Of a stretch of DNA of 40,135 nt, positions 2 to 31,094 are shown in pieces. Every line of letters starts with the position of its first letter. Positions within the stretch are counted from its first letter, which is position 1. The notes under the pieces were generated by a model. The model did no database searches. It worked only from the letters and a program-made list of their open reading frames with translations, and was not told the origin of the DNA. Position numbers and translations under genes: made by a program. Source of the DNA: Candidatus Zixiibacteriota bacterium (lineage in GTDB: Bacteria; Zixibacteria; MSB-5A5; GN15; FEB-12); contig JBGSIV010000098.1 in the NCBI GenBank assembly GCA_041742355.1, forward strand, positions 1 through 40,135, given 5' to 3'.

Positions 2-130
2 GATGTAGCTCTTGAGGCTCTACGTGATTGCTATCGTTCGCGTAAGTGCACTATGGATGATCTTTGGAAATATGGCAAAATCTGCAGAGTCGGGAACATC
101 ATGAAACCGTACCTTGAGTCCCTCACATGA
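2..130 (+). CDS. abiEi: AbiEi-family type IV antitoxin / transcriptional regulator, C-terminal fragment (5' truncated by window)
   Basis: Frame 2 reads DVALEALRDCYRSRKCTMDDLWKYGKICRVGNIMKPYLESLT*, a typical AbiEi C-terminus (DVALEAL...PYLE). Its stop overlaps the next start (ATGA, 127-130). Confidence 0.8.
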   Translation, partial: DVALEALRDCYRSRKCTMDDLWKYGKICRVGNIMKPYLESLT

Positions 131-1041
131 GCAAGCGGAATCCAGAACACATTGATGTATCCGTGCATCAGCGCCTGCTGAATCTCAGCCGGGAGCGGAA
201 AGAAGACTTCAATTTAATCCTGACGAGATATGCTGTCGAGAGATTCCTCTACCGGCTGTCCTGTTCACAATACGCAGATGAGTTTGTCCTGAAGGGGGCT
301 ATGCTACTAACCGTTTGGATGGGCCAATCGCATCGGCCGACCCGTGACCTGGATTTGCTCGGGTTTGGAGAATCTTCGGAGGAGGCCCTTAGGAAGATGT
401 TTGAGGAAATCTGTCGGGTTGAGGTCGAAAGAGATGGGCTTGTATTTGATCCGAGCAGTATAGGCATAGAGGAAATTCGTGGCGATCAGGAATACTCCGG
501 ACGACGGGTGAAGTTAGTTGGCAGATTGGGAAACGCCAAGACAAGAATCCAGATTGATGTCGGCTTTGGAGATGTCGTGACCCCAAAGGCCCTACCAGTA
601 GAGTATCCGGTTCTTCTCGATTTTCCGGCTCCCCGAATACGAGCTTACCCCATGGAGACGTTGATCGCGGAGAAGTTTCAGGCAATGGTCGCCCTGGGTA
701 TGGCCAACAGTCGCATGAAGGACTACTATGACATCTATGTTCTGTCAAAGACCTTTTCTTTCGATGGTTATAATCTGGTTTCGGCGATCACGGCCACTTT
801 CATGCGCCGAGACACACCGATTCCAAGCGATATACCTCTCGCATTGAGTGGTGAATTCGCGATGAGCAAGGATAAGGTCAGTCAGTGGAGAGCATTCACA
901 GATCGAAGCGGCCTTACAGACCTTGACGTCGATTTAGCTCAAATCATCAAAGAGCTGAGGGGCTTCTTACTTGGACCACTTCAGGCGGCCGCCTCTGGGC
1001 ACGCATTCAAGCGACAATGGACTGACGGCAGTTGGGGTTAG
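127..1041 (+). CDS. abiEii: AbiEii/AbiGii-family nucleotidyltransferase toxin (type IV TA / abortive infection)
   Basis: Motifs ERFLYRL, FVLKGAMLL, RPTRDLD, IAEK and SRMKDYYD; translationally coupled to the upstream AbiEi-like gene. Confidence 0.9.
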   Translation: MSKRNPEHIDVSVHQRLLNLSRERKEDFNLILTRYAVERFLYRLSCSQYADEFVLKGAMLLTVWMGQSHRPTRDLDLLGFGESSEEALRKMFEEICRVEVERDGLVFDPSSIGIEEIRGDQEYSGRRVKLVGRLGNAKTRIQIDVGFGDVVTPKALPVEYPVLLDFPAPRIRAYPMETLIAEKFQAMVALGMANSRMKDYYDIYVLSKTFSFDGYNLVSAITATFMRRDTPIPSDIPLALSGEFAMSKDKVSQWRAFTDRSGLTDLDVDLAQIIKELRGFLLGPLQAAASGHAFKRQWTDGSWG

Positions 1042-1054
1042 AGACAGTAATTTC

Positions 1055-3493
1055 ATGCAAGATGAAGACGAAAAGGATTTGTCGCGCAAGCTTCGCGATC
1101 TGCAGGAGGAAAACGAACGTCTTCGTATCGAAAACAAGACACTGAAGAAGGTTATCGCATCCTTTTCCGTCAAGCCGGCATCTTCTCTTCATTGTCAAAC
1201 GCCGTCCAGTGGTACGCTACCTGTCCCCGATGATGCAAGTGAAATCGCGCCAAGAGCGAAAATCGAGAAGGTACGGCTATTCCGAGATTTGTTCCGAGGG
1301 CGCGACGATGTATTCGCCATCCGCTGGGAAAACAGATCAGGGAAGTCCGGCTATGCTCCGGCCTGTGCCAATGAATGGGATCCGGTGTTATGCCGAAAAC
1401 CGTGTTCAAAATGCCCCAATAGCAATTACCTGCCACTTAGAGACTCAGTGATCGAAGAGCATCTCGCCGGAAAGAAGACAGTCGGGATATACCCTCTACT
1501 GACCGATGAGACATGTTACTTGTTGGCTGCGGATTTCGATAAAGCGTCCTGGCAGGATGATGTAATCGGGTTTCTACGGGCCTGTGGGGACATGGGTGTC
1601 CCTGCGGCTCTGGAACGGTCTCGATCCGGACAAGGGGCTCACATTTGGATCTTCTTCTCGGCGACAATACCGGCATTCCTGGCGCGCAAACTCGGCAGTG
1701 CCGTTTTGACGAATGCTCTTTCAACAAGACATGAGATTGGAATGGACTCATACGATCGCTTCTTTCCCAGTCAGGACACTATGCCCAAAGGAGGCTTCGG
1801 AAATCTGATAGCATTGCCGCTTCAAAGCATTCCAAGTGAGAAGGGCAATTCCGTATTTCTTGATGCTGATTTGAGGCCTTATCCGGATCAATGGGAGTAT
1901 CTGGCATCCATTAAGAGAATCAACCCAGATGAAGTGAAGTACATCGTCAAAGACTCTGAAAGGTCGAACTCGGTGATTGGAGTTCGCGCCGTAAAGTATG
2001 ATGATCTCGCTCAAGATGATCCGTGGACGCTGACTCCCTCGAAGCAATTTCCTGAACTGGAATTCAAGGGTCCCTTTCGCAAGAGCCTGTCAATTGTGTA
2101 TAGCAATCTTCTATATATAGAGAAAGCAGAGCTGTCTCCGCAGTCGACCAGCAGGTTAGTTCGACTGGCTGCTTTTCAGAATCCGGAATTCTATCGTGCA
2201 CAGGCCATGCGTCTTTCCACATTTGGAAAACCTCGCATAATTAACTGTGCAGAAGAATTCCCGAAACACATCGGTCTTCCAAGAGGCTGCCTGGATGAAG
2301 TCGGGGATCTTCTCAATTCCTGCAATGTCGGTTTGAAGCTGGAAGACAGACGATTCTCCGGGAAGCCAATCGTTATATCCTTTGAGGGCAAATTGCAGGA
2401 CAGGCAGGTTGATGCCGCTTCGACAATGCTTATGAGTGAAATAGGTGTGTTGGCGGCGACTACCGGGTTTGGCAAGACCGCAATTGCCTCCTGGCTGATT
2501 GGCCAACGAAAAGTAAACACGTTGATATTGGTTCACCGGCGTATACTCATGGATCAGTGGCGGGAACGGCTGGGCCTGTTTCTGAATATTCCGCCAGAAG
2601 AGATAGGACTTTACGGCGGCGGAAAGAGGAAGTTAACCGGCGTAGTTGACGTTGCCGTGATTCAGAGCCTTCAGAAAAAGGGGAAAGTTCTCGATTTGGT
2701 GGCCGACTACGGGCAGGTGATAGTCGATGAGTGCCATCACGTATCTGCCTTCAGTTTCGAACAGGTACTCAAGCAGGTTAAGGCACGTTATGTTGTCGGC
2801 CTGACCGCCACTCCGACCAGAAGAGATGGACATCATCCTATTATTATCATGCAGTGTGGTCCAATTAGGGCAAGAGTTGATGGCAGAGCCTTGGCGCTTG
2901 AACGGCCCTTCGAACATATTGTACTTCTGAGGGTGACCTCCTTCAGGATTCCAGAGTCTGTGGCGGAGCCGACAATTCAGGAGTTGTATGCCGCGCTAAC
3001 GCATGATCACGAACGAAACGTTCAAATCACCCAACAGGTTCTTGTCTCTGTGGCAAACGGCCGGTCTCCGCTGGTTCTGACAGAAAGGACTGAGCACCTC
3101 AAGATCCTGTCGGAGATGCTGAGAGACTCAGTTGAGAATATAGTCATACTGAAGGGAGGAATGGGAAAGAAGCAACGTGAGGCAGTATCCGAGCAGCTGA
3201 AGTCAATTCCCGATAATGTGAAGCGAGTTATCCTGGCGACAGGCAGACATATTGGTGAGGGGTTCGATGACGCCCGCCTGGATACATTGTTTCTGTCATT
3301 GCCGATTTCCTGGCGTGGGACGTTACAGCAGTATGCTGGGCGCTTGCACCGCTTACAGGACAACAAAACCGAAGTGCGGGTCTATGATTTCGTCGACAGG
3401 CATGTTCCCATGCTTGTTCGAATGTATCGAAAGAGGCTCGCTGGATACCGTGCTATGGGCTACTCGATCAACGAAGAGGTTGTCATTCCATGA
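1055..3493 (+). CDS. AEP-type primase domain (TOTE-conflict-system-like) fused to an SF2 (ResIII/XPB-like) DEAD/DEAH helicase
   Basis: N-terminal coiled coil, then LFRGRDDVFA, a Cys cluster (C-NEW..C..PC..C), catalytic-type ADFD, ERSRSGQGAH and GNLIALPLQ. C-terminal half has TGFGKT, DECH, TAT, GEGFD and QYAGRLHR. Start placed at ATG 1055, 13 nt after the abiEii stop. Confidence 0.85.
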   Translation: MQDEDEKDLSRKLRDLQEENERLRIENKTLKKVIASFSVKPASSLHCQTPSSGTLPVPDDASEIAPRAKIEKVRLFRDLFRGRDDVFAIRWENRSGKSGYAPACANEWDPVLCRKPCSKCPNSNYLPLRDSVIEEHLAGKKTVGIYPLLTDETCYLLAADFDKASWQDDVIGFLRACGDMGVPAALERSRSGQGAHIWIFFSATIPAFLARKLGSAVLTNALSTRHEIGMDSYDRFFPSQDTMPKGGFGNLIALPLQSIPSEKGNSVFLDADLRPYPDQWEYLASIKRINPDEVKYIVKDSERSNSVIGVRAVKYDDLAQDDPWTLTPSKQFPELEFKGPFRKSLSIVYSNLLYIEKAELSPQSTSRLVRLAAFQNPEFYRAQAMRLSTFGKPRIINCAEEFPKHIGLPRGCLDEVGDLLNSCNVGLKLEDRRFSGKPIVISFEGKLQDRQVDAASTMLMSEIGVLAATTGFGKTAIASWLIGQRKVNTLILVHRRILMDQWRERLGLFLNIPPEEIGLYGGGKRKLTGVVDVAVIQSLQKKGKVLDLVADYGQVIVDECHHVSAFSFEQVLKQVKARYVVGLTATPTRRDGHHPIIIMQCGPIRARVDGRALALERPFEHIVLLRVTSFRIPESVAEPTIQELYAALTHDHERNVQITQQVLVSVANGRSPLVLTERTEHLKILSEMLRDSVENIVILKGGMGKKQREAVSEQLKSIPDNVKRVILATGRHIGEGFDDARLDTLFLSLPISWRGTLQQYAGRLHRLQDNKTEVRVYDFVDRHVPMLVRMYRKRLAGYRAMGYSINEEVVIP

Positions 3494-19743: not shown

Positions 19744-21657
19744 ATGATACCAGTTGACCGCATTCGCAATCTGGCCATCGTGGCTCACATCGACCACGGC
19801 AAGACCACCCTGATCGACTCCGTCTTTCGGGCCACCCGGACCTTCCGCGACAACCAGCAGGTTGCGGAACGGCTCATGGACAACAACGACCTCGAACGCG
19901 AACGGGGCATTACAATCCGGGCCAAGCACTGCACGGTCACCTGGAACGACTACCTGATCAATATTATCGATACGCCCGGCCACGCCGATTTTTCGGGCGA
20001 GGTCGAGCGCGTCCTCTCGATGGTTGATTCTGTTCTGCTGCTGGTCGATGCCAACGAAGGCCCCATGCCGCAGACCCGCTATGTCCTCAAGCGCGCGTTG
20101 CGGCTCGGCCTTCGGCCGATCGTGATCATCAACAAGGTCGATCGCCCCAATGCCCGCCCCGACTACGCCCTGAACAAGACATTCGATCTCTTCATAGATC
20201 TCGGCGCCACCGATGCCCAGGCGCATTTCCCGGTCCTCTACGGCTCCGGACTCGACGGCTGGATGGTTCGCAACCTCGAAAAGGACGAGCCCGGCAGCAT
20301 GGACTCACTCTTCCAGACCATCGTTAGCGAGGTCCCGCCGCCCAGAGTCGATCAGGACGGCCCCTTCCTCATGCAAATCAGCACGCTCGCCTGGAGCGAC
20401 TATATCGGCCAAATCGGCTGCGGTCGCGTCCTGCGCGGCGCGCTCGACAAGGGGGATGTCTTCTCCCGCTTTGTCACCCGCTGGAAGGACTCCGCGAACC
20501 AGGATCTTGGCTACGAGCCGGTCACTTCCTCCCGCGAGAAAGGCGTCCACCTCTGGGTCACCCGGGGCCTGAACCGCGTCGAAACCGACCGCATCACGGC
20601 CGGGGACATTATCTGGATCGCCGGGCCGAGCGAAATCAGCATCGGTGACACCTTCTCAGCGCTGGAAGAACCGATTGATGTTCTGCCGCCGCTGGAGATC
20701 GAAGAACCCACGGTCTCGATGTTCTTCCTTGTCAACACCGGACCGTTTTCGGGCGAGGATGGCACCGCGATCATGCTCCGCCAGCTCAAGGATCGCCTCG
20801 GGCGCGAGCTGCGAGTGAATGTCGCCCTGCGCATGGAGGATATCGGCCGCTCCGACGGCGTCAAAGTCAGCGGCCGCGGCGAACTCCACCTCGCGATTCT
20901 CATCGAGGAAATGCGTCGTGAGGGACTCGAATTCTGCGTTTCCCGCCCGGAGGTTATTACCCATACCGATGCCGACGGCAATCTTCTTGAACCGTCCGAG
21001 CAGCTCATCATCGATGTCCCCGAGGAGTACCAGGGGATCATTATCGAGAAGATGGCCCGCCGCAAAGGGGAGCTGCGCACGATCGAGAATGCCGGCACGA
21101 ATACAATTCGCATCGAATTTGAAATCCCAACGCGCGGCCTGATCGGCTACCGCAACGAATTCCTGACCGACACGCGCGGAATGGGCATTATGGCCTCCCG
21201 CTTTGTCGGCTACGGTCCGTGGCGGGGCGAAATCGCCTCGCGCAACCGTGGTTCAGTCATCAGCATGGATACCGGCCCGGCCACCGCCTACGCCATCGAA
21301 GGCTTGCAGGAGCGCGCTGTTATTTTTGTAGAACCGACCGAGCGCGTTTACTCCGGCCAGATTGTCGGTGAGAACTCGCGTCCCGATGACCTTCCGTGCA
21401 ACCCGACCCGCCGGAAGAACCTGACCAATCACCGCTCGTCGACCAAAGATATCGGCGTGACGCTGGATGTCCCGCGCAAGATGACCCTCGAGCAGGCGAT
21501 TGAGTGGATCGGCCCCGATGAACTGGTTGAGGTCACGCCCAAGGCGATCCGGGTGCGCAAGGCGATCCTCGATTCCGAGCAGCGTAAACGGGCCGAGAAG
21601 CGTCAGGCGCTCGCCGGGCAGAACCTGTCCGCCGCGACTCCGCCCCCGGCTGCGTAA
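19744..21657 (+). CDS. typA: Translational GTPase TypA/BipA
   Basis: [77 protein letters not shown]. Confidence 0.97.
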
Positions 21658-21680
21658 GCCTAAGGCAGTTCTTGTTATAC

Positions 21681-21704
21681 GCTGCGGGCGATAATGCCCG
21701 CAGC
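21681..21704 (+). terminator. Hairpin after typA (possible terminator, no U tail)
   Basis: gctgcgggc-gataat-gcccgcagc, 9-bp perfect stem. Confidence 0.45.
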
Positions 21705-21730
21705 CGTACCACTTTCCGCTGCACTTTCCC

Positions 21731-21761
21731 TTGCCGAATCTCGATAATTTTGGTATATATT
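21731..21761 (+). promoter_or_regulatory. Putative sigma70 promoter for the leader-czcBA operon
   Basis: TTGCCG-N17-TATATA with an extended -10 TG. Confidence 0.5.
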
Positions 21762-21809
21762 ATTGTCGCTGAAGGCAACCACGGCAGTTGAACACCTGTT
21801 TAAGGCAAT

Positions 21810-22136
21810 ATGACCGGCAAGAAGCTGACAAGGACCCTCGCCACGATTCTCCGCACCGGCATCCTCCTGTTGCTGGCCTGTGCCTCGGTCGGCTTTGCAG
21901 CCACTGACCTGATCGCCATGTCCTGCGAGGAATGCCACGACGATCACTGCAACGAGTCCGACGAGAACTCCTGTGCCTGCCTGCACGCCCATTTCACGAT
22001 CAATACACTCCCGGCTTTGTCGGCTGAGTGGTCCTATGAACCGACCTCGCCCTCCTCGGCACCCCAGCCCATCGCACAGGATGCCGAGCAGGAGTGGTTC
22101 GACGCTATCGATCATCCTCCTCAAATACTCCACTGA
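21810..22136 (+). CDS. Small exported Cys/His-rich leader protein (DUF2946/CzcI/CutF-like architecture) ending in DHPP
   Basis: Basic N-terminus plus hydrophobic signal, CEECHDDHC...CACLHAH, Pro/Ser linker, C-terminal IDHPPQILH; first gene of the metal efflux operon. Confidence 0.75.
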   Translation: MTGKKLTRTLATILRTGILLLLACASVGFAATDLIAMSCEECHDDHCNESDENSCACLHAHFTINTLPALSAEWSYEPTSPSSAPQPIAQDAEQEWFDAIDHPPQILH

Positions 22137-22274
22137 GAGATTCGGACCGGCCTCCCGGCCGCGCTCTTCCCTGGCCAGTGACCGCGAAGACCACGGGGCA
22201 GTTATCTGTTCGGTTTGACCTCGGCTGCCGCCCGATCCCTTCGCGATGGGTACTATGAACCTTAGTGGAGATTT
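22123..22274 (+). promoter_or_regulatory. RBS-sequestering mRNA structure between the leader ORF and czcB
   Basis: AAAT-A-CTCCACTGAG (22123-22137) pairs with CTTAGTGGAG-ATTT (22261-22274), which contains the GGAG SD. Inner stems: CGCGAAG/CTTCGCG (22183-89/22239-45) and GGCAG/CTGCC. Confidence 0.7.
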
Positions 22275-22280
22275 CCGACT

Positions 22281-23813
22281 ATGCGCCTCTCACACCGCAA
22301 GCACATCTTGTTTGTCGCCCTGATCGCCCTCCTTGGCTACGCCGCTTTTGGATGCGGCAACGATCAGACGACCGATACTCACACGTCATCGGCCGAAACC
22401 GGTCATGAGGGGCACAATCACGCCCCCGGCGAGCACGGCCAATCCGCTGCACCTCCGGCCGGTTATGTCGCCGCCGTCGACTGGTGTGCCGAACACCGTG
22501 TCCCCGAGTCCGAATGCACCCTGTGCGATCCAGCGCTCGTCGAGAAATTCAAGGCCGCGAATGACTGGTGCGCCGGCCACAACCTTCCCGAGTCCCACTG
22601 CCGCCTCTGCAACCCGGGTATCTCATTCCCGCAGGAGGCTGCGCTGAGTGTCCGTACCACTGAGTTAGCTGCCGATGAAATTCATGTTTCTCTTTACTTC
22701 CGGCCGAATGCCGCTGTCTGCGCCACCAACGACGCCCTGATCCAGTTCGCCTCGGCTCAGACCGCGGAGCGCACCGGCCTCTCGGTCCAGCAGACGCGGG
22801 CCGCACTGCGTGAGGGGGCGATCGAAGCTCCAGCGGAAGTGAAGTTCGACGAGACTAAAGCGTCGGTCATTACCTCGACGGTCCCCGCCCTGGTTTCCCG
22901 GTGGCTCGTGGCCCCCGGTGAATCGGTCAAAGAAGGAGATATCCTCGCGATCGTGCAATCCCCGGAGATCGCCGCCCTCGAGGCGCGCCTCCTTTCGGCG
23001 TATGCCGCGTACGATGTCCAGGAGAAGGAGATTGCCCGCTTTCAGTCCCTGAAGGATCGCAAGCTGATCAGCGACGCCGACTTCGAGCGCCAGAACGCGC
23101 TGGCCGAGCAGACCCGCGCCGAGTACATCAGCCTCCGTGGTCTGCTCAAATCGGCCGGGCTTAACGAAGCCGATCTCGACGATATCATCGAACACCGCAA
23201 AGTCACCAATCAATTCGGCCTTCGCGCTCCCGCGAGCGGCCTTTTGGTCGAACGCATAGCCCAAGTCGGCGAACTGCTCGACGCGGGGCGCGCTTTCGCC
23301 ATGCTTGCCGATCCGTCGGCAATGTGGATTGAAGCCAGTCTCACCGAGCAGCAGCTCCGGCAAGTGGAGGTCGGGCAGACCCTCACGTTCGCTTCCGATG
23401 GCCGAGGCCTCGATCGGATCGGCGGCAAGATTATCTGGGTGTCCCGCGTCCTTGATCCGCACACCCGCACCGGCACGGTTCGCGCCCGCGTGATTGACCC
23501 AGCCCACCATCTGCAGGCCGGGGAATTCGGCCGCGCGCACATAATGAGTCAGGATGAGCACGAGGTGGTCCTTGTCCCGCGCGACGCTGTTCAGTGGGAG
23601 GGCTGCTGCAATGTCGTCTTCGTCCGCGAAGCCCCGGACCGCTTCCGCCCGCGTAAGGTCGAACTCATCGACGGCGACGGCGGCTACTACCAGGTCACCG
23701 GCGGCCTCCATCCCGGGGAGGATGTCGTCGTCAACGGCGCGTTCCTGCTCAAGACGGAACTGAAGAAGACCAGTATTGGCGCCGGCTGCTGCGGCCTCGA
23801 ATCGGCCGGGTGA
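22281..23813 (+). CDS. czcB: Heavy-metal RND efflux periplasmic adaptor (CzcB-like lipoprotein) with extra N-terminal Cys/His domain
   Basis: Lipobox AFGC; barrel-sandwich hybrid (VAPGESVKEGD), LRAPASG, LDPHTRTGTVRA, VPRDAVQ, GLHPGEDVVVNGAFLLK. Confidence 0.9.
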   Translation: MRLSHRKHILFVALIALLGYAAFGCGNDQTTDTHTSSAETGHEGHNHAPGEHGQSAAPPAGYVAAVDWCAEHRVPESECTLCDPALVEKFKAANDWCAGHNLPESHCRLCNPGISFPQEAALSVRTTELAADEIHVSLYFRPNAAVCATNDALIQFASAQTAERTGLSVQQTRAALREGAIEAPAEVKFDETKASVITSTVPALVSRWLVAPGESVKEGDILAIVQSPEIAALEARLLSAYAAYDVQEKEIARFQSLKDRKLISDADFERQNALAEQTRAEYISLRGLLKSAGLNEADLDDIIEHRKVTNQFGLRAPASGLLVERIAQVGELLDAGRAFAMLADPSAMWIEASLTEQQLRQVEVGQTLTFASDGRGLDRIGGKIIWVSRVLDPHTRTGTVRARVIDPAHHLQAGEFGRAHIMSQDEHEVVLVPRDAVQWEGCCNVVFVREAPDRFRPRKVELIDGDGGYYQVTGGLHPGEDVVVNGAFLLKTELKKTSIGAGCCGLESAG

Positions 23814-23817
23814 CGCC

Positions 23818-26800
23818 ATGCTGAAACATATTGTCGAATCCATCCTGCGCTATCGCCTCGTGGTGCTGGCGCTCGCCGGCGTCATGTGCATCCTTGGCGG
23901 CATCGCGCTGTGGAACCTCCCCTTTGACGCCTTCCCGGACACGACGCCGGTGCTCGTGCAGGTCAATGTCTCCGCGCCCGGCTGGGCGCCCGAGGATTTG
24001 GAACGCCTCGTCACCTATCCGCTCGAACAGGTTCTTACCGGCCTGTCCGGCCTGGAGGAGGTCCGTTCGGTCACCAAGTACGGCCTCTGCCAGATCACCA
24101 CGATTTTTGACGACGATGCCGATCTGTACCTCGCCCGCCAGCAGGTTTCAGAACGCCTTCTTGCGGCGGAACTGCCCGACGGTGTCGGCGCTCCGCAGCT
24201 CGGCCCGGTTTCGACCGGCCTCGGCGAGATTTTCCACTACATCGTTGTCAGCGAATCCGAGGACCTTACTGACCCGCGCACGGTGCAGGACTGGATAGTC
24301 AAGCCGCAACTGCAGGCGGTCCCGGGTGTCGCCGAGGTCAACAGCTGGGGTGGTTTCGAGAAGCAGTACTTTCTCCTGTTCGATCCCGATCGCCTCGCCC
24401 GCTACAATCTCTCGCTGAATGAAGTCGTCGCGTCGGTGCGCGACGATCTCGGCAATGTTCCCGGCGGCCAGATTGTCCGGGGCGGTGAGATGACGATCAT
24501 CCGCGGCATCGGCCAGGTCGAATCGATCGATCAGATAAAGAGCATTGTCATTGCTGCCCCGGAAGGCACGCCGATCACGGTCGCCGACATCGGAGATGTC
24601 ATCATCGGCCATGAACTTCGTCTCGGCGCGGCCACCTACAACGGGAAGGGGGAGGCGGTCCTGGGCCTCGGTTTCATGATCACCGGGGAGAATCCCGCCG
24701 CCATCACTGAGCGCATGGCCGAGCGTCTCGAAGAAGCCGCGCCGACCCTGCCCGAGGGGGCGAGCGCGTTCCCCGTGTACGAACGGACGAAGCTGGTCAA
24801 GGAAGTACTCTCCACCGTCGAGCACAACCTCTTCTACGGAGCGATCCTCGTTGTCGCGGTCCTCTTCTTTTTTCTCGGCAATCTGCGGGCCGGTCTCATT
24901 GTGGCGTCGGCCATACCGCTCTCGATGCTCTTCGCTTTCGATCTCATGTCCCGTGCCGGGATTACCGGGAGTCTTATGAGTCTCGGCGCGATCGATTTTG
25001 GCCTCGCGGTCGACAACGCCGTCATCCAGGTGGAGAATTCTGTCCGTCGCCTCTCCGATGCCCAACCCGCAGCCAATCGCATGGAGGTTATTCGCGACGC
25101 GATCCTTGAGGTGCGCAAACCGACTCTCTTCGGCGAACTGATTATCATCATAGTCTATCTTCCTATCCTCACGCTGCAGGGGGTTGAAGGCAAGCTGTTC
25201 CGCCCGATGGCCCTCACCGTGGTCTTTCTGCTAACCGGGTCGCTGCTGCTCAGTTTCACGGTTCTTCCGGCCCTGATCGGCACCTTCCTCACGAAGAAGG
25301 TCAGCGACCGTGAGCCCCGCTTTGTCCACTGGTTGCGCCGCCTCTACGAACCGCTCCTCGACCGAGCGTTGCGCCACAGCCGCGCGATCATTATCGGCGC
25401 TCTCGTGCTCGTGATCGCCGGGGGACTTCTCTTCACCCGCCTCGGCTCCGAATTTGTCCCGCGCCTCTCCGAGGGCACGATAGTTATCAACCTGGTCCGG
25501 CTTGCCGGTATCTCGCTTGATGAATCGGTCGAGTACAACACCCGTATCGAGCAGAACCTGCTGGCAGCTTTTCCCGACGAAATCGAGCACGTGTGGACCC
25601 GAGTCGGCACGGCCGAGCTCTCCACTGATCCGATGGGTCTCGAATTGTCCGACATGTTCATGTCCCTTTACCCGAAAGAGCAGTGGACCCGGACTGACAA
25701 TCAGGCCGAACTCGTCGCTCTGATCGATTCCACACTGGCCGAGCTGCCCGGCCAGAATCGCGTGTTCACTCAACCGATCGAGATGCGTGTCAACGAGATG
25801 ATCGCCGGCATTCGCGGCGATGTCGGCATCAAGCTGTTCGGTGCGGATCTCGCTGTCCTCGAAGCGAGGGCCGAGGAGATCGCCGCGATGGTCGAGACTA
25901 TTCCGGGCGCCGCCGATGTTTCCATAGAGCAACTGACCGGTCAGCCGCAGCTTCGCCTCTCGGTCGACCGCGACCGCCTCGCCCGATTCGGCCTGACTGC
26001 GCGCGAAGTCCTTACTGCCATTGAGAGCATCGGCGGTATCGAGGTTGGCGACGTTTTCGAGGGGACCCGCCGGTTCGATCTCCTCGTGCGCATCGACACC
26101 ACCCGCCTCGGCGGTCCTGAGGATATCGGCAACATCCTGGTCCGTTCGGCCAACGGGAGCCTGGTCGGCCTCGATCGCGTCACCACTGCGGTTCTCGATG
26201 AGGGGCCCGGGACGATCACCCGCGAGTGGAGCACGCGCCGGATAGTGATCCAGTCCAATGTCCGCGATCGCGACCTCGGTTCGTTCGTGGCCGAGTTGCG
26301 CGAGCGTTTGGACAAGGAAGTTCCGCTCCCGGAGGGTTACTTCATCCGCCTCGGCGGCCAGTTTGAAAATCTCGAACGGGCCCGGACGCGTCTGGCGATT
26401 GTGGTGCCGATTGCGTTGCTGTTGATTTTCGGTCTGCTCTACTGGACGTACCACTCGGCCCGGGACGCCGTGTTGATCTTCTCCGGCGTCCCATTGGCCG
26501 CGCTGGGCGGGATTGTCACGCTTGCCCTGCGCGGGATGCCTTTCTCGATTTCGGCCGGAGTCGGTTTCATCGCTCTCTCCGGTATCGCGGTCCTCAACGG
26601 TCTGGTGCTGGTATCGACGATCAAACTGCTGCGTTGCGAGGGTCACGATATCGTGGCCGCCGTTCGCCAGGGGGCGCTCACCCGCCTGCGTCCGGTCTTC
26701 ATGACCGCGCTGGTCGCCGCCCTGGGCTTTGTCCCGATGGCCCTCTCGACGGGTGTCGGGGCCGAGGTTCAGCGCCCGCTGGCCACCGTGGTCGTCGGCG

Positions 26801-26886
26801 GTATCCTCACTTCCACCGCCCTGACGCTTATTGTCCTGCCCGCCCTTTACATAACATTCGGCAAGCGCACGGAGGGAGAAGTGTGA
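23818..26886 (+). CDS. czcA: CzcA/CusA-family heavy-metal efflux RND permease (CzcA-like, divalent cations)
   Basis: DAFPDTTPVLVQV, GPVSTGLGEI, MSLGAIDFG..VD.AV..VEN, EGKLFRPMA, RLRPVFMTALVAALGFVPMA, GAEVQRPLATVVVGG. Confidence 0.95.
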   Translation: MLKHIVESILRYRLVVLALAGVMCILGGIALWNLPFDAFPDTTPVLVQVNVSAPGWAPEDLERLVTYPLEQVLTGLSGLEEVRSVTKYGLCQITTIFDDDADLYLARQQVSERLLAAELPDGVGAPQLGPVSTGLGEIFHYIVVSESEDLTDPRTVQDWIVKPQLQAVPGVAEVNSWGGFEKQYFLLFDPDRLARYNLSLNEVVASVRDDLGNVPGGQIVRGGEMTIIRGIGQVESIDQIKSIVIAAPEGTPITVADIGDVIIGHELRLGAATYNGKGEAVLGLGFMITGENPAAITERMAERLEEAAPTLPEGASAFPVYERTKLVKEVLSTVEHNLFYGAILVVAVLFFFLGNLRAGLIVASAIPLSMLFAFDLMSRAGITGSLMSLGAIDFGLAVDNAVIQVENSVRRLSDAQPAANRMEVIRDAILEVRKPTLFGELIIIIVYLPILTLQGVEGKLFRPMALTVVFLLTGSLLLSFTVLPALIGTFLTKKVSDREPRFVHWLRRLYEPLLDRALRHSRAIIIGALVLVIAGGLLFTRLGSEFVPRLSEGTIVINLVRLAGISLDESVEYNTRIEQNLLAAFPDEIEHVWTRVGTAELSTDPMGLELSDMFMSLYPKEQWTRTDNQAELVALIDSTLAELPGQNRVFTQPIEMRVNEMIAGIRGDVGIKLFGADLAVLEARAEEIAAMVETIPGAADVSIEQLTGQPQLRLSVDRDRLARFGLTAREVLTAIESIGGIEVGDVFEGTRRFDLLVRIDTTRLGGPEDIGNILVRSANGSLVGLDRVTTAVLDEGPGTITREWSTRRIVIQSNVRDRDLGSFVAELRERLDKEVPLPEGYFIRLGGQFENLERARTRLAIVVPIALLLIFGLLYWTYHSARDAVLIFSGVPLAALGGIVTLALRGMPFSISAGVGFIALSGIAVLNGLVLVSTIKLLRCEGHDIVAAVRQGALTRLRPVFMTALVAALGFVPMALSTGVGAEVQRPLATVVVGGILTSTALTLIVLPALYITFGKRTEGEV

Positions 26887-27956: not shown

Positions 27957-27999
27957 CTGTTACACGGTGTATGGACGACGACAAATCCGAGGATACGCT

Positions 28000-28424
28000 A
28001 TGACTTCAGGTGTACTCGCCCGGCGGGCCGGCGTGAACAAGGAGACGGTCCGCTACTACGAGCGGGAAAGACTCCTTCCCAGCCCCCCGCGCACCGGCGG
28101 CGGCTACCGAACTTTCTCCGACGAGGATCTCAAACGCCTCGTATTCATCAAGAATGCCCAGAAGTTCGGTTTCGGCCTGCAGGAGATTCGCGAACTACTG
28201 GCTATTGCCGATGGTGAGTTGATCGACCGCGCCGAGGTCCGGGCCGTTGCGAAAAACAAAGTCGCCCAGATTGACGAGCAGATCGTGCGGCTGGCCCGCC
28301 TTCGCCACGCCATGCAGAACCTGATCCACCGCTGCGCCCGCCATACCGAGCTGACCGGCTGTCCCATCATCGATACCCTTGCGGACGGCGCCATTGACTC
28401 ACCTGATACTGTTGGAGACCGGTA

Positions 28425-28425
<1 letters not shown>
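28000..28425 (+). CDS. MerR-family heavy-metal-responsive transcriptional regulator
   Basis: [43 protein letters not shown]8-CPII; GAGGA RBS; stop overlaps the ATPase start (TAATG). Confidence 0.92.

Positions 28426-31094
<2,669 letters not shown>

What the first reader, a model, noticed from the sequence alone, without database searches (positions are those of the whole stretch)
21810..22283. Candidate metal-sensing ribosome-stalling leader peptide that gates translation of an RND efflux pump
Seen: (1) a 108-aa ORF with a signal peptide, a Cys/His cluster (C39-H61: CEECHDDHC...CACLHAH), a ~40-residue linker and H102-P103-P104 four codons before the stop. (2) The nucleotides right after the PP codons (AAAT-A-CTCCACTGAG, 22123-37) are complementary over 14 bp (one G:U, one bulge) to CTTAGTGGAG-ATTT (22261-74), which holds the czcB SD. 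(3) Nested stems in the 144-nt spacer bring the two arms together. Known: DUF2946-type leaders CruR (Bordetella) and CutF (Rhodobacter) combine a signal peptide, Cys motif and C-terminal RAPP-like arrest motif to control downstream copper genes. Inference: a ribosome paused at HPP would cover the anti-SD arm and free the czcB RBS, while the Cys/His cluster sits outside the tunnel at the translocon sampling metal. An HPP variant on a CzcBA-type exporter would extend this mechanism to divalent-metal efflux, possibly with logic opposite to uptake systems.
Basis: partly seen in the sequence, partly recalled or inferred. Interest (0 to 1): 0.85.

Follow-up and report, generated by a model that had tools for sequence, protein, structure and literature searches.

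The report
Proline-tailed leader gating metal efflux pump
A small exported, cysteine-rich gene sits just ahead of a heavy-metal efflux pump, and the end of its message folds back over the pump's ribosome-binding site in many related uncultured bacteria, so it most likely acts as a ribosome-pausing switch of a kind already known from copper-sensing leaders, here with a different pause motif that has not been tested.

Summary
ORF 21810-22136 belongs to a leader family without a Pfam match (175 representatives): hydrophobic N-terminus, Cys cluster, then [ID]D[HR]PP 2-7 residues before the stop. It precedes czcB in 20 of 20 relatives with upstream DNA and 75 of 80 further loci, mostly titled Zixibacteria. 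A Cys sits exactly 43 residues before the first Pro in 43 of 57 loci; this copy has Ala there, between two His. The leader tail pairs better with its own czcB ribosome-binding site than with others' in three locus sets (2, 36, 10 of 50,000 permutations); 98 ordinary gene pairs do not. Coupling of czcB translation to the leader is well supported; pausing and metal sensing are inferred. The motif is not RAPP (no Arg, 0 of 150), and a ribosome at the stop codon opens the site equally well. Öztürk 2023 already lists CutF-like leaders before CzcB/CusB, and CutF already uses this 'stall opens the SD' logic. This scan reported similar leaders with other motifs in three other genomes.

The parts
21731..21761 (+). 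Candidate sigma-70-type promoter of the leader-czcBA operon (TTGCCG ... TATATA/TATATT); inferred by position from relatives
   Evidence: Sequence. Not called by the consensus scan (0 found). 9 of 21 czcB-anchored loci have a 10/12 or better site upstream of the leader, typically TTGNCA-N16-TATATT, several 48-51 nt before the ATG.
21810..22136 (+). Leader ORF, 108 aa, member of an IDHPP/DRPP CutF-like family
   Evidence: No Pfam or NCBIfam hit. GC3 0.76, like czcB/czcA/typA at 0.76-0.79.
21810..21902 (+). Basic-then-hydrophobic N-terminus (signal peptide or signal anchor)
   Evidence: Hydropathy peak at residues 18-30; helix 4-40 in the model; 144 of 150 homologues have such a segment. Cleavage not tested.
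21924..21992 (+). Cys/His cluster C39-H61 (putative metal or redox sensor)
   Evidence: Among 57 czcB-anchored loci, Cys at -56 in 39 and at -43 in 43 (distance to first Pro). This copy keeps Cys at -56, -48, -46 and His at -44 but has Ala at -43.
21993..22106 (+). Fixed-length linker of unconserved sequence (ruler)
   Evidence: Nearly gap-free but unconserved in alignment A1. Last CxxC to first Pro = 43 in 101 of 124 measurable homologues (HMM-selected set) and Cys at -43 in 43 of 57 czcB-anchored loci.
22107..22121 (+). I-D-H-P-P motif, putative pause site
   Evidence: PP within the last 15 residues in 147 of 150 homologues; IDHPP 64, IDRPP 19, LDRPP 11. Pro codons CCY in 64 of 76 versus 69 of 174 other leader Pro codons.
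22123..22137 (+). Anti-SD arm, inside the last four codons and the stop of the leader
   Evidence: locus-specific pairing in homologues.
22137..22166 (+). Post-stop hairpin without a U-tract (conserved position, unconserved sequence)
   Evidence: z < -1 in 51 of 72 loci versus 14 of 98 ordinary gene pairs. Only 4 of 66 such hairpins are followed by 5 or more T in 8 nt.
22183..22245 (+). Inner spacer stem that shortens the loop between the two arms
   Evidence: Present in MFE and centroid folds; model only.
22261..22274 (+). SD arm (GGAG at 22267-22270) of czcB
22281..23813 (+). czcB-like periplasmic adaptor with a His-rich linker, a twice-repeated WCxxHxxPESxCxxC N-terminal module (22473-22658) and a C-terminal GAGCC
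   Evidence: HlyD_D23 and TIGR01730 above cut-off. The N-terminal 140 aa have no Pfam hit. Module conserved.
23818..26886 (+). CusA/CzcA-family heavy-metal RND transporter, divalent type
   Evidence: TIGR00914 1149 bits against cut-off 701. ZneA 705 bits versus CusA 560. TM4 reads DFG..DNA..VEN, and none of the three CusA Met ligands is kept (alignment; residue roles recalled). No outer-membrane factor gene in the window; OEP genes lie on other contigs.

Best explanation
A CutF-type translational switch for a divalent heavy-metal RND pump. (1) The leader, czcB and czcA are transcribed from a promoter upstream of the leader [inferred]. (2) On a free mRNA, the last codons of the leader pair across an 80-155-nt structured spacer with the czcB Shine-Dalgarno region and keep czcB off [helix shown in sequence; selection on it shown by comparison]. 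(3) The leader is exported co-translationally. When the ribosome reaches IDHPP, the 43-residue ruler has put the Cys/His cluster just outside the tunnel and translocon [geometry inferred; spacing matches CutF's 41-42]. (4) Without metal the pause is short (EF-P is encoded, and export pulls on the chain). With metal bound to the cluster the pause lengthens, the ribosome sits on the anti-SD arm, and czcB (and coupled czcA) is translated [inferred from CutF; not shown]. The inducer is most likely a thiophilic divalent ion (Zn, Cd, Co or Ni); copper is not excluded.
For: Family conservation and fixed position before czcB: 20 of 20 and 75 of 80. Ruler: Cys at -43 in 43 of 57 czcB-anchored loci; CutF C73 to P114/P115 is 41/42; spacing is functionally required in CruR. 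Cognate tail x RBS duplexes beat non-cognate ones in 21 loci (2/50,000), 17 independent loci (36/50,000) and 37 more loci (10/50,000). The signal is confined to windows starting 0 to +15 nt from the first Pro codon. 98 ordinary gene pairs of the same genome show none (12,064/20,000), and their SD pairs with the upstream gene tail in 2 of 98 versus 45 of 71 leader loci. Modelled opening cost of the czcB RBS in this locus falls from 9.3 to 6.9-7.7 kcal/mol with a ribosome on the PP codons, against 10.3-10.5 eight codons earlier. No folded domain after the signal helix. The same logic has been shown for CutF (passages).
Against: No pause or metal response has been measured. A ribosome at the stop codon opens the RBS as well as one at PP (7.0 kcal/mol here; 44-45 of 72 loci versus 25-42 at the two Pro positions), so the RNA evidence cannot separate stalling from plain coupling. 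The motif lacks the Arg needed by RAPP arrest peptides, and RPP was reported as non-stalling in E. coli. This copy lacks the family's -43 Cys. The helix register is not fixed: two peaks, at the Pro codons and at +15 to +25. RNAalifold found no consensus pairs on a 14-locus alignment whose SD ends were misaligned. 21 of 72 loci show no cognate advantage. One control (tail versus czcB +60) reached about p 0.04 in the first set and in the pooled 38. Two homologous leaders precede large secreted LamG proteins that have no obvious link to metals.
Confidence: 0.55

Rival explanations
1. Plain translational coupling: any ribosome finishing the leader melts the helix, so czcB output simply follows leader translation, and metal control, if any, is transcriptional. 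The Cys cluster and PP have another role or only slow the ribosome constitutively.
For: Modelled opening at the stop codon equals that at PP. Much of the anti-SD lies 15-30 nt after the first Pro, at or beyond the edge of a PP-stalled ribosome. The motif is not a proven arrest sequence.
Against: It does not explain an invariant PP (57 of 57, partly by construction of the set), the conserved I-D before it, or a Cys held exactly 43 residues upstream across an unconserved linker.
Confidence: 0.15
2. A pausing leader that senses something other than metal binding: the oxidative folding (disulfide) state of its Cys cluster or the pulling force of the Sec translocon. It would match production of exported proteins to envelope capacity.
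For: Median 7 Cys per leader. The CutF model itself invokes disulfides as the release force (passage). Two homologues lead large secreted LamG proteins (L062, L063).
Against: Of 20 new leader loci found with the leader profile alone, 17 precede czcB and 1 precedes an HMA-domain protein. This copy replaces a Cys by Ala beside two His, which fits metal ligation better than a disulfide (inference).
Confidence: 0.12
3. CruR-type control at the transcript level: ribosome position on the leader tail governs RNA-polymerase pausing at the post-stop hairpin and Rho-dependent termination. The SD helix is a secondary layer.
For: Conserved post-stop hairpin (51 of 72). Spacers of 81-155 nt approach CruR's 162 nt. 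C over G skew of 0.23 in the leader's last part.
Against: Locus-specific pairing is with the RBS. Hairpins lack U-tracts. Spacer C/G skew is small (0.07). The ruler matches CutF (41-42), not CruR (48).
Confidence: 0.1
4. The product is a periplasmic metal-binding helper of the pump (as long proposed for CzcI), and the RNA helix is incidental.
For: Export signal and many Cys/His ligands. One 167-nt contig of an RNA library matches the leader at 99% (weak).
Against: No folded domain. Conserved length rather than sequence in the linker. Locus-specific RNA pairing is absent from ordinary gene pairs.
Confidence: 0.08

Closest known systems
CutF of Rhodobacter capsulatus (cutFOG). Seen: Öztürk 2023 PMC9973294 (abstract, passages, Bioinformatic analyses section; text search of 3 supplements, whose logos are images and File S1 not held); Öztürk 2021 PMC8456105 (passages); bioRxiv 10.1101/2025.02.05.636593 (passages; supplements closed)
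   Same: Export signal, Cys cluster, C-terminal PP a few residues before the stop, Cys-to-Pro spacing 41-42 versus 43 here, an mRNA helix hiding the downstream SD, and a detoxification target. The 2023 paper lists CusB/CzcB, CusA/CzcA and CusC/CzcC among common downstream neighbours of CutF-like genes.
   Different: Motif IDHPP/DRPP rather than EGPPP. Larger Cys/His cluster. The anti-SD lies in the leader's last codons and pairs across 80-155 nt. The target is a divalent-type RND pump. The lineage is mainly Zixibacteria. Nothing has been tested here.
CruR (Bp2923) of Bordetella pertussis, DUF2946/PF11162. Seen: Roy 2022 PMC9426467 (abstract, introduction, first results section, section 9, passages); Fujiwara 2025 PMC12992588 (passages)
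   Same: Upstream ORF with a Cys motif at a family-fixed distance from a C-terminal PP motif, in front of metal-handling genes.
   Different: CruR has CXXC and RAPP with 45 intervening residues (48 to the first Pro), acts through Rho termination, and is switched off by copper. This family has no R-x-P-P (0 of 150) and no DUF2946 hit in this protein.
RAPP/RGPP arrest peptides (ApcA, ApdA, ApdP, SecM; Streptomyces SLIV peptides). Seen: PMC12992588 passages; PMC10987492 term search only (no occurrence of HPP, RND, efflux or metal)
   Same: C-terminal di-proline on a small exported upstream protein.
   Different: The Arg that is irreplaceable there is Asp here. If this motif pauses, it is more likely an EF-P-sensitive XPP pause or a new arrest chemistry.
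CzcI of Cupriavidus metallidurans; DUF6660 and DUF6769 of Bacteroidota
   Same: Small exported proteins; CzcI lies before czcCBA and falls in CutF-like cluster 20 (passage). DUF6660/DUF6769 clusters were the nearest named ones in the language-model search (0.94, low shared-feature counts).
   Different: The paper says CzcI lacks the C-terminal proline motif. DUF6660/DUF6769 hit only 1 and 2 of 132 members, at E 0.008 and 0.03: leads, not membership.

Membership tests
CutF-like proteins (rule set of Öztürk 2023) | At most 150 aa | tested here: met
   108 aa; rule read.
CutF-like proteins (rule set of Öztürk 2023) | PP within 15 residues of the C-terminus | tested here: met
   P103-P104 of 108; 147 of 150 homologues.
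CutF-like proteins (rule set of Öztürk 2023) | Sec signal peptide predicted by SignalP | tested here: inconclusive
   Basic then hydrophobic N-terminus; SignalP not available, so cleavage is untested.
CutF-like proteins (rule set of Öztürk 2023) | [quoted passage not shown] | tested here: met
   czcB 144 nt downstream.
CutF-like proteins (rule set of Öztürk 2023) | Found by the paper's jackhmmer profiles / one of its 29 clusters | not testable with these tools
   Logos are images and File S1 is not held; text search of 3 supplements found no 'HPP' or 'Zixibacteria'.
CutF mechanism | mRNA helix hides the downstream SD | tested here: met
   (computational: folding and cognate-pair tests).
CutF mechanism | Metal-induced ribosome stalling at the proline motif | not testable with these tools
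   Needs toeprinting or reporters.
DUF2946 (PF11162) / CruR | Match to the Pfam model | tested here: not met
   No Pfam hit for this protein at E <= 1. DUF2946 is not among the 12 families hit by 22 members, nor among the 25 of 56 families shown for 132 members.
DUF2946 (PF11162) / CruR | C-terminal RAPP | tested here: not met
   DHPP here; 0 of 150 homologues have R-x-P-P.
DUF2946 (PF11162) / CruR | CXXC 45 residues before RAPP | tested here: not met
   Family spacing is 43 to the first Pro versus 48 in CruR; this copy has C57xxA60.
RAPP/RGPP arrest peptides | Arg two residues before PP (irreplaceable) | tested here: not met
   Asp101.
CusA/CzcA heavy-metal RND (downstream pump) | TIGR00914 above cut-off | tested here: met
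   1148.7 versus 701.45 bits.
CusA-type (Cu/Ag) subfamily | Three periplasmic Met ligands (positions recalled) | tested here: not met
   They align to Asn, Leu and Glu in the alignment; ZneA scores higher than CusA.

The most novel reading that the evidence does not exclude
IDHPP/DRPP is an arrest motif of its own, with Asp where RAPP needs Arg. It lets a nascent exported Cys/His peptide read periplasmic Zn, Cd, Co or Ni across the membrane and switch on a CzcBA-type pump through a long-range RNA helix. This would be the first nascent-peptide sensor shown for a divalent metal and for an RND efflux system, and the same leader module would have been reused in front of unrelated secreted proteins.
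Probability: 0.3. Interest if true: 0.72.

Novelty: new member of a known kind. Interest (0 to 1): 0.45.

Why it matters
In the papers seen here, metal-sensing nascent leaders were tested only for copper (CutF, CruR), although CutF-like genes are predicted in front of RND pumps. This family supplies comparative evidence for the RNA half of the switch (locus-specific pairing in three locus sets, absent in ordinary gene pairs), an exact 43-residue ruler, and a pause motif outside the RAPP rule. That makes a short, well-defined reporter test possible for whether such leaders can sense divalent metals and whether DHPP arrests ribosomes. The kind of system itself is already known.

Tried and rejected
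Whole-spacer folding stability as evidence: not better than shuffles (z +0.73; +0.69). RNAalifold on a MAFFT alignment of 14 loci gave no consensus pairs; the SD ends were misaligned, so this is uninformative rather than negative. Synonymous recoding test per locus: only 6 of 21 reached p <= 0.05, mean z -0.99, and this locus was not significant (0.39). Rfam: one chance-level hit (SorY, 17 bits against gathering score 111). Promoter/terminator scan of 21500-22400: none. Paralogues of the leader in the own genome: none beyond E 0.35. A DNA-pattern search with the leader alignment could not be run for lack of a conserved stretch; the czcB module was used instead. RNA evidence: one run held 0.08 of the words. 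A 167-nt contig with one difference covers 21965-22131, but contigs show neither ends, strand nor level, and DNA carry-over is not excluded, so it is not used. Literature: searches for IDHPP / DHPP motif / HPP motif / WQPPK / DUF6660, Zixibacteria with metal efflux terms, stalling with uORF, zinc and RND since 2023 (20 of 79 listed) and czcI with stalling (25 of 9,792 listed) showed no paper on this family in the held library, which lacks most subscription journals. The ZneA metal-site residues could not be checked against a paper, so they are not used. A MerR-type 19-bp spacer reading of the promoter was considered and dropped, because the best sites in relatives have 16-18 bp (mostly 16; only 16-18 were scanned).
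Full report
Observation. Taken alone the locus is only mildly beyond chance. The region folds no better than shuffles (z +0.73), and 50 of 1408 GGAG-type start regions in the genome pair with the tail as well as czcB's does. The ORF has the GC3 of neighbouring real genes (0.76), no Pfam or NCBIfam match, and a model with one N-terminal helix and no folded domain.

Context. Order: typA, a 152-nt gap, leader, czcB-like adaptor, CusA/CzcA-family RND, DUF748-like protein, MerR-family regulator, Cu-type P1B ATPase. The RND is closer to ZneA (705 bits) than to CusA (560), has DFG in TM4 and lacks the three CusA methionines (residue roles recalled), so it is read as a divalent-metal pump. No outer-membrane factor is in the window; several lie on other contigs. 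Relatives found through the adaptor's N-terminal module are mostly titled Zixibacteria, or uncultured bacteria under other labels, with a few Calditrichaeota, Kofleriaceae, Riflebacteria and a deltaproteobacterium. The lineage of the window itself is inferred from these.

The leader is a family. A czcB search of 60 relatives matched 21. One lay at a contig edge, and the other 20 all carry a similar leader 91-150 nt upstream. A profile of these found matches in 42 of 160 genomes of the order and 175 representatives in the 50% library. Of the 150 listed, 147 have PP in the last 15 residues (IDHPP 64, IDRPP 19, LDRPP 11), 144 have a hydrophobic N-terminal segment and none has R-x-P-P. Of 80 further czcB loci, 75 have the leader within 2.4 kb upstream. 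Of the five misses, one is at a contig edge, one has a partial PP-tailed ORF at the edge, and three have none found. The linker is conserved in length, not sequence: a Cys lies exactly 43 residues before the first Pro in 43 of 57 non-redundant czcB-anchored loci. In CutF the distance is 41-42; in CruR it is 48, and there it is functionally required. This copy and its closest relative P0002 have Ala at that position, flanked by His59 and His61.

The RNA helix is under selection. I compared the duplex energy of each leader tail (30 nt from the first Pro codon) with its own czcB start region (-25 to +3) and with those of other loci. Cognate pairs were stronger in the first 21 loci (-13.4 versus -11.0 kcal/mol; 2 of 50,000 permutations). 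They were stronger in 17 loci found independently with the leader profile (-14.2 versus -11.8; 36 of 50,000; 3 of 20 new loci left out because the next gene was not czcB; starts picked by hand from the SD). They were stronger again in 37 further loci with automatic start calls (-11.8 versus -10.4; 10 of 50,000; 38 of 75 dropped: 33 duplicates, 5 with spacers outside 60-170 nt). Of 72 non-redundant loci, 51 have a cognate value better than their row mean. Upstream leader windows showed nothing. One czcB-internal control reached about 0.04 in the first set and the pool, not in the other two sets. The effect is limited to 20-nt windows starting 0 to +15 from the first Pro codon. In full folds the SD core pairs with the tail (p > 0.5) in 45 of 71 loci, against 2 of 98 ordinary gene pairs with similar spacers in the own genome, which also show no cognate advantage. 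The two Pro codons are CCU/CCC in 64 of 76 cases against 69 of 174 for other leader prolines, which fits their use as an alternative anti-SD register. A hairpin follows the stop in 51 of 72 loci (14 of 98 in controls), mostly without a U-tract. Limits: the loci are kin; the register varies; a plain alignment gave no consensus structure; per-locus recoding tests were significant in only 6 of 21.

How it most likely works. Shown: cis position, ruler, PP tail, SD-hiding helix. Inferred: a pause at IDHPP that is prolonged by metal bound to the Cys/His cluster outside the translocon, which frees the czcB SD. Modelled RBS opening cost for this locus drops from 9.3 to 6.9-7.7 kcal/mol with a ribosome on the Pro codons, and not eight codons earlier; but it drops equally (7.0) with a ribosome at the stop codon. 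The RNA data therefore establish coupling (my estimate about 0.85) but not stalling. The fixed ruler and invariant PP argue for a pause. The lack of Arg and the report that RPP alone does not stall in E. coli argue that it is not a RAPP-type arrest. EF-P is encoded. I put the full metal-induced model at 0.55.

Comparison with what is known. It works like CutF, and it meets three of the four rule-based criteria for 'CutF-like' proteins; the signal-peptide call could not be run. It is not a DUF2946/CruR member or a RAPP peptide by the features tested. Öztürk 2023 already reports CutF-like genes before CusC/CzcC, CusA/CzcA and CusB/CzcB and suggests other metals, and CutF already uses metal-induced stalling to free a downstream SD. 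So neither the efflux context nor the logic is new. Whether an IDHPP cluster is among that paper's 29 clusters could not be seen, because the logos are images and File S1 is not held; supplements of the 2025 preprint are closed. My searches showed no paper on this motif or lineage. Earlier notes of this scan describe analogous leaders with LPPP, RGPP and RAPP tails before metal pumps in three other genomes. None matched this sequence or the word IDHPP.

Verdict. Real, functional-looking, and a new sequence family within a known kind of regulator. Its added value is the comparative support for the RNA switch and an untested non-RAPP motif on a divalent-type pump. Interest 0.45.

Noticed in passing
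L064:1290-4498 (G000:C169:27289-30497): The same genome has a second, classical leader (hydrophobic N-terminus, His/Cys cluster with CSIC, C-terminal RAPP, 99 aa) 47 nt before a putative outer-membrane porin, znuA and znuB: a RAPP leader on a probable zinc-uptake operon beside the IDHPP leader on an efflux operon.
   Followed up: partly
L062:735-1082 and L063:632-1117: Two homologous leaders ending IDHPPCN precede large (about 880-900 aa or more) secreted LamG-domain proteins, one with FN3 repeats, rather than a metal gene; the module may have been reused.
   Followed up: partly
L053: A homologous leader precedes a small HMA-domain (CxxC) protein instead of czcB.
   Followed up: partly
window 22473-22658 and 23790-23804: czcB carries a twice-repeated WCxxHxxPESxCxxC module with no Pfam match and a C-terminal GAGCC, both highly conserved; 353 stretches in the genome collection encode a relative of the module, some as small stand-alone ORFs.
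   Followed up: partly
L119, L128, L142, L144: In some loci another gene lies directly before czcB: a 166-aa protein in L119 and L128 (no leader found in L128), and a roughly 420-aa ORF between leader and czcB in Kofleriaceae L142 (not scanned; L144 has a similar gap).
   Followed up: no
L110:1736-2224: A Calditrichaeota locus has an upstream ORF with a hydrophobic N-terminus but no PP tail before czcB: possibly a degenerate leader.
   Followed up: no
L017, L015: In some relatives the predicted -10 box lies only 5-22 nt before the leader ATG, suggesting a leaderless or nearly leaderless mRNA.
   Followed up: no
window 127-3493: AbiEii-type nucleotidyltransferase gene followed by an AEP-TOTE primase-helicase gene at the contig start: a possible defence or mobile island.
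   Followed up: no
window 27967-31094: MerR-family regulator overlapping the start of a P1B ATPase with two YHS and two HMBD domains, 1.1 kb after czcA on the same strand.
   Followed up: no
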